Below are positions 40,201 to 43,200 of a stretch of 64,000 nucleotides of DNA, in pieces (positions within the stretch are counted from its first letter, which is position 1; each line of letters opens with the position of its first letter). The position numbers are program-made. The DNA lies in assembly GCF_988243305.1 (NCBI RefSeq), contig NZ_OZ547136.1; one strand, written 5' to 3'.

Positions 40201-43200
40201 ACTTACATGAAATTAACGGCGGCTAAACGCATTGTTTTTTTTATATATTTATTTGTAATCCAGTTTTGGAAAAACGCCAGTTTTCAAACGAAAGTCAGTT
40301 AAAAATCTGCCGGGATATGACGAAGGTGGAGCGGGGAAATAAATATCCTCCGGCATAGCCGGAGGTTTTTCAAATGCGCCTATAAGGCTCTCTTACCAGC
40401 CGCGCCCTAACAGGCGCACACGATCTGACATTTGCATCCAACTTCGTTACTTACGGCCCGTAAACGGGCTGCCCGGATAGGGAATCGATAACTGCTCTCC
40501 CATTTTATCCTCTTCAAGCTGGTGCTTTATGTAATCCTGTATCTTCGCCGTGTTCTTACCCACCGTATCGACGTAATACCCTCTGCACCAGAACTCCCTG
40601 TTCCTGTATTTGAATTTCAAATCACCAAACTGCTCGTAAAGCATCAGACTGCTTTTCCCTTTCAGATATCCCATAAAGCCTGATACGCTCATTTTGGGCG
40701 GGATCTCCACAAGCATATGGATATGATCTGCACAGCATTCAGCTTCCAGAATCCGTACACTTTTCCACTCACACAGCTTTCTCAAAATACAGCCTATTGC
40801 TCTACGCTTCTCTCTGTAGAACACCTGTCTTCGGTATTTTGGCGCAAATACTATGTGATATTTACAGTTCCATCGGGTGTGCGCTAAGCTCTTTTCGTTC
40901 CCCATTGGGACCCCCTTTTGATTTCTTGTTTGACACTTGCAGTTGCCAGACCGCAAGGTGTTTTAACAAATCAAAAGGGGTTTTAATAACTGGCTCAAAG
41001 CTGAAAGCTTTCCGGAACCCCCAGCCTAGCTGGGGGTTTTCTGTGCACAATAATAAACGGCCCATTCATGAGGAATGGGCCGTGAAAGGAGATTACGCGA
41101 CCGGGCGCGCAATAATGCTGCGGGTTTCCATGCGGACTTCGGCAATGGTGACGTCAATAACGTCAGTCACTTTGTAAGCCGTTTCACCTTTAATTTGTAC
41201 AGTGCCGTTTTCCTGGCTGCAAACCAGTTCATCGCGCACAGCGTGTAAGAAAGGTGCCGGAATAAAGGCGATAGCGCCGTTATCAACCAAACGCACACGC
41301 ATGCCGCCACGGCTGATATCGACAATTTCCGCCGCGAAACGGGTGTCGGTCCCGGCTTTGTCTTTCAGGAAGCGTGCGTATAACCAGTCGCCAACATCAC
41401 GTTCTGCCATTCGGTTGAGACGGCGACGCTCGGCCATTTGGACAGTGATTTCATCCTGCGGACGCGTCGCAGTTTCGCCTTTGATAACCGCTTTCAGCAG
41501 ACGGTGGTTGATCATGTCGCCATATTTACGGATCGGCGAAGTCCAGGTGGCGTATGCCTCCAGACCGAGGCCAAAGTGAGGACCGGGTTCAGTGCTAATT
41601 TCAGCAAATGACTGGAAGCGACGAATGCGGCTGTCGAGGAAACCAGTTGGTTGCGCATCCAGTTCACGACGCAGTTTGCAGAAACCGTCCAGCGTGAGCA
41701 CTTCTTCGGCATCGACATGCAGACCGTGGGTTTTCAGCAACGCTGCCAGCGCGTCGGCATTCGCCGGATCAAAGCCCATATGCACGTTATAGATGCCAAA
41801 ACCGAGCTTATCGCGCAGTACGCGGGCCGCACAAATGTTAGCGGCAATCATCGCTTCTTCGACTATACGGTTGGCAATGCGACGAGGCTCGGCGACGATA
41901 TCCAGTACTTCACCTTTTTCACCGAGAATAAAGCGGTAATCCGGGCGATCTTTAAATACTAGTGCGTGGTTATGACGCCACTCGCCACGGCGTTGGCAAA
42001 TTTGCGCTAACAAACGGACTTGTTCGGCAATTGCTTCACTTTCAGGCTGCCAGTCACCGGTATTTTCCAGCCAGTCAGAAACCTGGTCATACACCAGCTT
42101 CGCTTTGGATTCGATGGTGGCGGCAAAGAATTCGATATTATCTTCAATGGTGCCATCAGCGGAGAGCGTCATGCGGCATGCCAGAACCGGGCGGACTTCA
42201 TTGGCGCGCAGTGAGCAGAGATCGTCAGAAAGCTCGCGAGGCAGCATAGGGATGTTGAAGCCAGGCAGATAGTTGGTGAATGCGCGAATTTTCGCGGCTT
42301 TGTCCAGCTTGCTTCCTTCAGCAATCCACGCGGTTGGATCGGCAATCGCCACAATCAGCTGAAGTTTGTCATCCGGCAACGCCTTAGCGAAAAGGGCGTC
42401 ATCCATATCTTCTGTGCTGGCACTGTCGATGGTGACAAAATCCAGTGCGGTCAGATCTTCACGAACCAGACCTTCATCGAGCATTTCGGTAGCGACGCCG
42501 TCTGGTGCTTCTTTTTCCAGATTATGGCGCGCAAGGGTAACCCACCACGGTACAAAGTGATCGTCACCAAAAGTGATGTATTGTGTCAGTTCAGCATAGA
42601 AAGAACGATCGCCTTTCAGCGGATGACGGCGCATTTCGGCAACCGCCCAGTCGCCTTCTTTAAACTCGTGGTTCAGGCCACGGGCTGCGCGGCAAGGAAT
42701 GGCGTCTTTTAAAAGTGGATGATCAGGAACGATGGCCAGACGGTCATTTTTGCCCTGAACTTTACCCACGAAACGAGTCAGGAACGGTTCAACCAGTTCT
42801 TCTGGCTCTGCGGATTCACGTTCTTTTTCACTGTGGATCATCGCGATAATTCGGTCGCCATGCATGACTTTTTTCATCTGCGGCGGCGGAATGAAATAAC
42901 TTTTTTGCGCGTCGACTTCCAGGAAGCCAAAGCCTTTTTCTGTGGCTTTTACCACCCCTTCAGCGCGTGGCGTCTGGGAATGCAGTTGCTGTTTAAGCTG
43001 CGCTAGCAGCGGGTTGTCCTGAAACATAATTGTCTATTTTGGTGGCCATTAGAGCGGCTGACAGTTTTACGCGAATCTGTCTGACGCAGCAAGGTTAATA
43101 TGTCTCACCCAACGCGATTTTTAAGCGATTTATCCAGCCACACAGCCCGCTCCATACCAGCAGATTAATAATCTGCGTTGATGATTTTTCGTGTTCGAGT

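What the first reader, a model, noticed from the sequence alone, without database searches (positions are those of the whole stretch)
40340..41050. IS200-family element inserted between the rnb terminator and the pdeR promoter region
A 152-aa Y1/HUH transposase gene with the hallmark subterminal perfect hairpin is present between rnb and pdeR, which as I recall are adjacent in K-12. The element sits about 200-300 bp upstream of the pdeR start codon, so it could alter expression of this c-di-GMP phosphodiesterase. Boundaries are estimated from the typical ~0.7-kb element length and the hairpins.
Basis: partly seen in the sequence, partly recalled or inferred. Interest (0 to 1): 0.4.

Follow-up and report, generated by a model that had tools for sequence, protein, structure and literature searches.

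The report
IS200C insertion at the rnb terminator
An intact copy of the well-known small mobile element IS200C sits just after the terminator of the rnb gene, 193 bases upstream of pdeR; the same insertion is already annotated in public E. coli genomes, so the finding is real but ordinary.

Summary
Window 40338-41048 (minus strand, 711 bp) is a complete IS200C element.

- **Transposase:** tnpA (152 aa) has the HUH motif and Tyr125, and is 100% identical to the IS200C transposase of EPEC E2348/69.
- **Ends and RNA features:** both subterminal hairpins are perfect. The 5'UTR stem-loop buries the ribosome-binding site. Rfam STnc490 matches at 146 bits.
- **Insertion site:** the empty site (minus strand) reads rnb terminator hairpin, then TTTATT, then TCCCC. 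The element went in right after TTTATT, inside the terminator's T-tract, in the same direction as rnb and pdeR. There is no target duplication.
- **Unique detail:** this window has 3 extra bases (AAT, 41049-41051) at the left junction. None of 5,426 complete E. coli genomes shares them.
- **Distribution:** 31 of 5,426 complete genomes carry an IS200 at this site.
- **Recurrent insertion:** IS sequence types and flank types disagree, and K-12's empty site matches a filled genome's flanks over about 2 kb. This points to repeated independent insertions.
- **Target rule:** 53 of 53 distinct IS200/IS1541 left flanks in other genomes are a hairpin followed by a T-rich tract.
- **pdeR:** the 193 bp upstream of pdeR are intact and both IS ends are terminator-like. 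A large effect on pdeR is not expected and was not tested.

The parts
40338..41048 (-). Complete IS200C element, 711 bp. On the minus strand it reads GTGCACAG...GGAGGATATTTATT.
   Evidence: Filled/empty alignment. Length is 711 bp in all 16 filled loci compared. 99.7% identical to a copy at an unrelated site in strain KE48. The right end finishes ATATTTATT in 47/47 related copies and the left end starts GTGC in 53/53.
40447..40905 (-). tnpA, Y1/HUH transposase, 152 aa plus stop. HUH = H61-I62-H63; catalytic Tyr125.
   Evidence: The Y125F mutant is catalytically dead in Salmonella IS200 (PMC4513863).
41016..41038 (-). Left-end subterminal hairpin: perfect 10-bp stem, 3-nt loop. Corresponds to nt 12-34 of Salmonella IS200, described there as a bidirectional rho-independent terminator.
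   Evidence: anatomy from PMC4513863.
40912..40980 (-). tnpA 5'UTR stem-loop that buries the Shine-Dalgarno sequence AAGGGGG.
   Evidence: Inverted repeat I1. Rfam RF01405 STnc490 at 146.4 bits over 40915-41038. RNA fold -40.4 kcal/mol, z = -4.2.
40897..40986 (+). Inferred art200 antisense sRNA locus (about 90 nt, start at IS nt 153/154). Candidate -35 TTTACA at 40861-40866 and -10 TAAGCT at 40885-40890.
   Evidence: Inferred by transferring the Salmonella IS200 coordinates of PMC4513863 onto this copy, and by reading the sequence. No expression data here.
40338..40365 (-). Right end: perfect 8-bp stem with 3-nt loop (40347-40365), followed by the terminal ATATTTATT (40338-46). Terminator-like on both strands.
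41049..41051 (.). Three extra junction bases (AAT on plus, ATT on minus) between the target TTTATT and the left end. Absent from all 31 filled complete genomes.
41052..41083 (-). rnb intrinsic terminator: 11-bp stem with 5-nt loop at 41057-41083, then the target hexamer TTTATT (41052-41057) after which the IS is inserted.
   Evidence: flank folds at -19.6 kcal/mol.
40145..40337 (-). Unbroken 193-bp region upstream of pdeR. It has the same content as in empty-site strains and contains the ymiB-like ORF (40198-40302) on the plus strand.
38159..40144 (-). pdeR (yciR), PAS-GGDEF-EAL c-di-GMP phosphodiesterase, 661 aa, intact.
   Evidence: NF007474, 1338.8 bits.
41093..43027 (-). rnb, exoribonuclease II, 644 aa, intact.
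   Evidence: TIGR02062, 1189.5 bits.

Best explanation
This is a structurally intact copy of insertion sequence IS200C (IS200 group of the IS200/IS605 family). It inserted by single-strand 'peel-and-paste' transposition immediately 3' of TTTATT in the T-tract of the rnb intrinsic terminator, co-directional with rnb and pdeR, without duplicating the target. The site fits the group's target rule: a terminator-like hairpin followed by TTTNTT, which the element's own right end also resembles (hairpin plus ATATTTATT). This terminator has probably been hit several times independently in E. coli. The element keeps its own expression low through a terminator hairpin at the left end, a buried ribosome-binding site and, by homology, an antisense RNA. 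It is bounded by terminator-like hairpins on both sides, so it most likely acts as a nearly silent passenger that leaves rnb termination and the pdeR upstream region intact. Shown here: identity, boundaries, intactness, target context and population distribution. Inferred: the transposition mechanism (from IS608 and ISDra2 biochemistry), art200 expression, independent recurrence, and neutrality for pdeR.
For: Family assignment. TnpA is identical to the E2348/69 IS200C transposase and has HUH plus Y125. There is no target duplication, because TTTATT is the element's own right-end terminus in 47/47 copies. For the target rule, 53/53 distinct left flanks contain a hairpin; 94% fold at -10 kcal/mol or lower, against 9% of 1,649 control TTTNTT sites. 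Tandem IS1541 copies are inserted exactly after another copy's right end. The site is filled in 31 of 5,426 genomes. IS and flank haplotypes disagree: 20AH011 and AHB5 have 0 flank SNPs but 29 IS SNPs, while the window and 82.0311 have 0 IS SNPs but 50 flank SNPs. K-12's empty site is identical over about 2 kb to the filled PRO_A-1420 flanks. The regulatory anatomy of IS200 comes from PMC4513863.
Against: No transposition assay or expression data are available for this copy. IS200 is reported as almost immobile in the laboratory (PMC4513863). That sits uneasily with repeated insertion at one site, unless events accumulate over long times or gene conversion between IS copies explains the haplotype discordance. 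The 3 extra junction bases do not fit a perfectly precise insertion. The pdeR promoter is not mapped here, and the sigma-70 consensus scan found none in 40000-41200. An upstream element displaced by the insertion therefore cannot be excluded.
Confidence: 0.9

Rival explanations
1. The insertion happened once in an ancestor. The present diversity reflects vertical inheritance, homologous recombination of the whole rnb-IS-pdeR segment between lineages, and gene conversion among IS200 copies within genomes, rather than repeated hits on the same terminator.
For: The insertion point is the same to the base in all 16 loci compared. Genomes with this insertion hold up to about 34 IS200 places, which gives ample templates for gene conversion. 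IS200 is reported as nearly immobile (PMC4513863).
Against: Only 31 of 5,426 genomes are filled. Filled alleles occur on at least four flank haplotypes that differ by up to about 50 SNPs per 2.2 kb, while carrying identical IS copies. K-12's empty allele is identical over about 2 kb to a filled allele. Junction lengths differ (711, 712, 714 bp). The family-wide hairpin plus TTTNTT target rule predicts re-use of such a site.
Confidence: 0.25
2. The insertion materially changes pdeR expression. It could do so by blocking read-through from rnb, by displacing upstream regulatory DNA, or by transcription leaving the IS, and so alter c-di-GMP and curli control.
For: The IS end is only 193 bp from the pdeR ATG and co-directional with it. 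PdeR is a trigger enzyme in curli and biofilm control (PMC5052742 and PMC10333796). Natural variation at yciR is linked to biofilm phenotypes (PMC10333796).
Against: The whole 193-bp region present upstream of pdeR in empty strains is retained unchanged. rnb already ends in a strong terminator (-19.6 kcal/mol) whose T-tract stays T-rich after insertion. The IS right end is terminator-like towards pdeR. The tnpA promoter is described as intrinsically weak (PMC4513863). No promoter-like site was found in the IS right end. No paper links IS200 with pdeR.
Confidence: 0.12
3. The copy is a dead relic: structurally complete but unable to move.
For: IS200 transposition is strongly repressed and rarely observed (PMC4513863). 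The extra ATT next to the left end could disturb recognition of the left cleavage site.
Against: The ORF is full-length with HUH and Y125, and is identical to the copy in E2348/69. Both hairpins are perfect and both termini match the consensus of 47 to 53 other copies.
Confidence: 0.1

Closest known systems
IS200C of E. coli, for example the annotated copy between rnb and pdeR in EPEC O127:H6 E2348/69 (NC_011601.1)
   Same: Same site, same orientation, 711-bp element, and TnpA 100% identical.
   Different: The window has 3 extra bases (AAT) at the left junction, 1 SNP inside the IS, and a different flank haplotype.
IS200 of Salmonella enterica (707-710 bp, the founding member)
   Same: Single tnpA of 152 aa with catalytic Y125. 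Left-end terminator hairpin at nt 12-34. Shine-Dalgarno-sequestering 5'UTR stem-loop, and the art200/STnc490 locus.
   Different: A different host and sequence variant. Direct identity to the Salmonella reference was not measured here.
IS1541 of Yersinia pestis and Y. pseudotuberculosis
   Same: The 23-nt left-end hairpin and the right-end terminus ATATTTATT are identical, and TnpA shares 143/152 residues. It has the same preference for hairpin plus T-tract targets. From my own memory, not verified with the tools: Odaert et al. 1998 (J Bacteriol 180:178) already proposed terminator-like stem-loops as IS1541 hot spots.
   Different: 710 bp against 711 bp. The left end reads GTGCCCAG rather than GTGCACAG. 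Copy number is much higher in Y. pestis.
IS608 (Helicobacter pylori) and ISDra2 (Deinococcus radiodurans), the mechanistic paradigms of the IS200/IS605 family
   Same: Homologous Y1 HUH transposase (PDB 2A6M E 1.1e-18; 2XM3 E 4e-16). Subterminal hairpins, no terminal inverted repeats, no target duplication, and insertion 3' of a short target sequence abutting the left end.
   Different: Those elements also carry tnpB and use TTAC or TTGAT targets with no requirement for a hairpin in the target. IS200 has tnpA only, and its targets are hairpin plus TTTNTT.

Membership tests
IS200/IS605 family, IS200 group | Y1 HUH transposase with an HUH motif and a single catalytic tyrosine | tested here: met
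   Pfam PF01797 E 1.7e-37. NCBIfam NF033573 145.9 bits (cut-off 55). H61-I62-H63 and Y125 present. PDB relatives 2EC2, 2F4F, 2A6M and 2XM3.
IS200/IS605 family, IS200 group | tnpA is the only gene (no tnpB or iscB); element of about 0.7 kb | tested here: met
   The element is 711 bp, of which 459 bp are tnpA. The ORF list shows no other family gene.
IS200/IS605 family, IS200 group | Subterminal hairpins at both ends and no terminal inverted repeats | tested here: met
   Perfect hairpins at 41016-41038 and 40347-40365. The two termini (GTGCACAG... and ...ATATTTATT) are not inverted copies of each other, as read directly.
IS200/IS605 family, IS200 group | No target-site duplication; left end abuts a short specific target sequence | tested here: met
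   Empty site GGGCCG-TTTATT-TCCCC against the filled site. The second TTTATT is the element's own terminus in 47/47 copies. The left flank is TTTNTT in about 52/53 copies.
IS200/IS605 family, IS200 group | Transposition through single-stranded DNA intermediates (peel and paste) | not testable with these tools
   Requires biochemistry or genetics. Inferred from homology to IS608 and ISDra2 TnpA.
IS200C (named isoform) | Near-identity to the reference IS200C sequence (by the ISfinder convention as I recall it: over 95% aa or over 90% nt) | tested here: inconclusive
   The ISfinder reference is not available here. As a proxy, TnpA is 100% identical to WP_000526113.1 and differs at 1 aa from WP_000526135.1. 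PGAP labels both 'IS200/IS605-like element IS200C family transposase'.
IS200 regulatory RNA module (5'tnpA / art200, Rfam RF01405 STnc490) | [quoted passage not shown] | tested here: met
   146.4 bits against a gathering score of 56, full-length 1-124. Fold -40.4 kcal/mol, z = -4.2. Expression of art200 was not tested.

The most novel reading that the evidence does not exclude
The rnb terminator is hit repeatedly by IS200 because it mimics the element's own right end (hairpin plus TTTATT). These recurrent insertions are retained because they insulate or retune pdeR, and hence curli and biofilm control, in certain lineages such as EPEC E2348/69. On this reading it is an adaptive, convergent regulatory insertion rather than a neutral passenger.
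Probability: 0.07. Interest if true: 0.45.

Novelty: already known. Interest (0 to 1): 0.15.

Why it matters
The element and this exact insertion site are already present and annotated in public genomes, including the reference EPEC strain E2348/69, so little is new. The useful by-products are threefold. The boundaries are fixed to the base. The site turns out to be the T-tract of an intrinsic terminator, which follows a very strong target rule for the IS200/IS1541 group (53 of 53 flanks). [quoted passage not shown] Strain-typing or pdeR/curli studies in carriers of this insertion should simply be aware of it.

Tried and rejected
- **Literature link between IS200 and pdeR/yciR:** none found.
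- **Primary papers on IS1541 and IS200 target choice:** I tried to read Odaert 1998 and Beuzon 1999, but neither is held. A search for 'IS200 group / IS1541 / peel and paste' returned nothing. The statement that terminator targeting is published therefore rests on my memory.
- **pdeR promoter:** the sigma-70 consensus scan found no site in 40000-41200, so the pdeR promoter could not be placed.
- **Weak Rfam hits:** Ysr202, a second STnc490 hit at 41016-41082, ncr1175 and others are far below their gathering scores. They only reflect terminator-type hairpins and were dismissed.
- **The TTTATT repeat as a target duplication:** rejected, because TTTATT ends the element at unrelated sites too.
- **The extra AAT as part of the element:** rejected, because all 15 other filled loci compared lack it and keep a 711-bp IS. 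Whether it is donor-flank carry-over or later slippage of AAT to AATAAT could not be decided.

Full report
**1. The observation**

A minus-strand ORF (40447-40905 from the ATG; 152 aa) matches Pfam Y1_Tnp (E 1.7e-37). It also matches NCBIfam NF033573, 'IS200/IS605 family transposase', at 145.9 bits against a cut-off of 55.

The flanking genes are full-length. pdeR lies at 38159-40144 (minus strand; NF007474, 1338.8 bits). rnb lies at 41093-43027 (minus strand; TIGR02062, 1189.5 bits).

Two perfect hairpins lie near the ends of the element:
- 41016-41038: 10-bp stem, 3-nt loop.
- 40347-40365: 8-bp stem, 3-nt loop.

The left-end hairpin pattern is not expected by chance: shuffled versions of the window gave 0 matches. 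It occurs only once in the 64 kb, so the window holds a single copy.

**2. Exact boundaries and the empty site**

A megablast against 5,426 complete E. coli genomes shows that nearly all have rnb and pdeR without the element. Thirty-one have the full insertion.

Read on the minus strand, the empty site is: rnb terminator stem ...GGGCCG, then TTTATT, then TCCCCGC. It is identical in strain WP5-S18-ESBL-08 and in K-12 MG1655. In K-12 the only annotation between the two genes is the 34-codon ymiB.

In filled genomes such as E2348/69 the site reads ...GGGCCG TTTATT [GTGCACAG ... GGAGGATATTTATT] TCCCCGC. The bracketed insert is 711 bp.

The second TTTATT is not a target duplication. A copy at an unrelated site (KE48, near iroB) and 47 of 47 related copies from other genomes all end ...CCGGAGGATATTTATT, and their flanks diverge after that. 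On the other side, 53 of 53 copies start GTGC after variable flank.

The element is therefore 40338-41048. A 6-nt register ambiguity remains, inherent to the repeated TTTATT.

The window also has three extra bases (AAT on the plus strand, 41049-41051) between the target hexamer and the left end. None of the 31 filled complete genomes shares them, and one (CFIAFB20140388) has a single extra A instead. Among the 15 other filled loci compared, six have one extra A on the other flank. The IS itself is 711 bp in all 16 loci compared. I cannot decide whether the AAT is 3 nt of donor flank carried along by an offset left-end cleavage, or a later AAT to AATAAT slippage.

**3. Anatomy of the element**

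The transposase has the HUH motif (H61-I62-H63) and Tyr125. The Y125F mutant is the catalytically dead control used for Salmonella IS200 (PMC4513863).

The protein is 100% identical to WP_000526113.1 of E2348/69. It differs by one residue from WP_000526135.1. PGAP names both 'IS200C family transposase'. Its solved relatives are the family paradigms: Sulfolobus 2EC2 and 2F4F, IS608 2A6M and ISDra2 2XM3.

Rfam RF01405 (STnc490) matches the tnpA-sense strand at 40915-41038 over its full length, at 146.4 bits against a gathering score of 56. The 5'UTR folds into a long stem-loop that pairs the Shine-Dalgarno AAGGGGG (-40.4 kcal/mol, z = -4.2).

This matches the published anatomy of Salmonella IS200 (PMC4513863):
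- a bidirectional terminator hairpin at nt 12-34;
- a weak tnpA promoter starting near nt 40;
- a Shine-Dalgarno-sequestering repeat at nt 69-138;
- the 90-nt antisense art200 starting at nt 153/154.

Transferring those coordinates puts art200 at about 40897-40986 on the plus strand. This is an inference from homology, not an observation.

**4. Where it inserted, and why there**

The insertion point is inside the T-tract of the rnb intrinsic terminator, 6 nt after an 11-bp stem. The tract stays T-rich afterwards: TTTATTATTGTG against TTTATTTCCCC in the empty site.

To see whether this is typical, I scanned one genome per species for the exact 23-nt left-end hairpin and examined the flanks. All 53 distinct left flanks contain a hairpin. 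A T-rich hexamer directly abuts GTGC, with T at positions -1, -2 and -5 in 52 of 53 and position -3 variable.

Ninety-four per cent of these flanks fold at -10 kcal/mol or lower. Only 9% of 1,649 control TTTNTT sites from the same loci do so. Most of these flanks come from one Yersinia pestis genome (IS1541). Vibrio, Pluralibacter, Brenneria, Edwardsiella and Mailhella copies, and the E. coli KE48 copy, follow the same rule.

The element's own right end is a hairpin followed by ATATTTATT. Tandem IS1541 copies in Y. pestis are inserted exactly after it. So the preferred target looks like the element's right end.

From memory, terminator-like stem-loops were proposed as IS1541 hot spots by Odaert et al. 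(J Bacteriol 1998). I could not retrieve that paper, so this rests on recollection.

**5. One event or several**

Among 13 filled loci with about 2.2 kb of flank, IS and flank haplotypes disagree:
- 20AH011 and AHB5 have identical flanks, but their IS copies differ at 29 positions.
- The window and 82.0311 have identical IS copies, but flanks differing at 50 positions.
- XJ6.1, 20AH011 and PRO_A-1420 share an identical IS on flanks differing at 16-44 positions.

K-12's empty allele is identical over about 2 kb to the flanks of the filled PRO_A-1420 allele.

With only 31 of 5,426 genomes filled, and with junction length variants, the simplest reading is repeated independent insertion into this terminator. 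A single event followed by recombination and gene conversion among IS copies is not excluded (I put it at about 0.25).

**6. Consequences for the neighbours**

The 193 bp between the IS and the pdeR ATG (40145-40337) have the same content as in empty strains. A pdeR promoter within that 193 bp is therefore not split. The rnb terminator is retained. The left end adds a second terminator-type hairpin, and the right end is terminator-like in both directions.

The simple promoter scan found no sigma-70-like site anywhere in 40000-41200. It therefore neither locates the pdeR promoter nor suggests an outward promoter in the IS. No paper in the library links IS200 with pdeR.

The anatomy nevertheless argues for at most a small effect, and it needs an experiment.

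**7. Comparison with known elements, and novelty**

This is a member of IS200C, in the IS200 group of the IS200/IS605 family. Every sequence-level defining feature that could be tested is met. Only the mechanism and the formal ISfinder identity could not be tested.

The same insertion is annotated in public genomes, including the reference EPEC strain E2348/69. The finding is real, correctly interpreted and ordinary. I rate novelty 'already known' and interest 0.15.

The only points specific to this window are the 3-nt junction variant and its particular combination of flank and IS haplotypes.

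Noticed in passing
window 40198-40302 (+): A 34-codon ORF (MTYMKLTAAKRIVFFIYLFVIQFWKNASFQTKVS) lies between pdeR and the IS. It is annotated as YmiB (b4672) in K-12 and as 'hypothetical protein' WP_000221855.1 elsewhere, and is marked frameshifted in some strains. It reads towards the IS right end.
   Followed up: partly
L007-L070 (genome-contig hits): The exact 23-nt IS200 left-end hairpin AACCCCCAGCTAGGCTGGGGGTT occurs in genomes and MAGs far from Enterobacteriaceae: Vibrio, Oxalobacter, Mailhella/Desulfovibrio, Bacillota, Peptococcaceae, Elusimicrobiaceae and 'Saccharibacteria'. It often sits about 100 nt from contig ends. This could reflect wide horizontal spread or assembly and binning artefacts.
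   Followed up: no
L072, L073, L075, L119 (Yersinia pestis NCTC5923): Head-to-tail tandem IS1541 copies. The second copy's left end (GTGCCCAG) starts directly after the first copy's right-end terminus ATATTTATT, so the IS right end itself serves as a target.
   Followed up: partly
H69, NZ_CP128979.1 (strain TUM1881), rnb-pdeR interval: This genome has an IS1B element in addition to IS200C in the same intergenic interval. The match is split into 2 pieces spanning about 2 kb.
   Followed up: no
window 40915-41038 (-): Rfam RF01405 'STnc490' matches the tnpA-sense strand (left-end hairpin plus 5'UTR). Ellis et al. 2015 equate STnc490 with the antisense RNA art200, so the Rfam model and the literature name appear to refer to opposite strands.
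   Followed up: no
L004 and L138 (S1bESBLb, AHB5), same rnb-pdeR site: Two genomes carry a clearly different IS200 variant at the identical position. It differs at about 29 of 711 nt and 6 aa (TnpA WP_001550737.1), and PGAP does not label it IS200C. The flanks are identical to those of a genome carrying IS200C.
   Followed up: partly
window 40375-40418: An imperfect 13-nt inverted repeat (TGCGCCTATAAGG / CCTAACAGGCGCA, 18-nt spacer) lies inside the IS right end, between the tnpA stop and the right-end hairpin. Its role is unknown.
   Followed up: no
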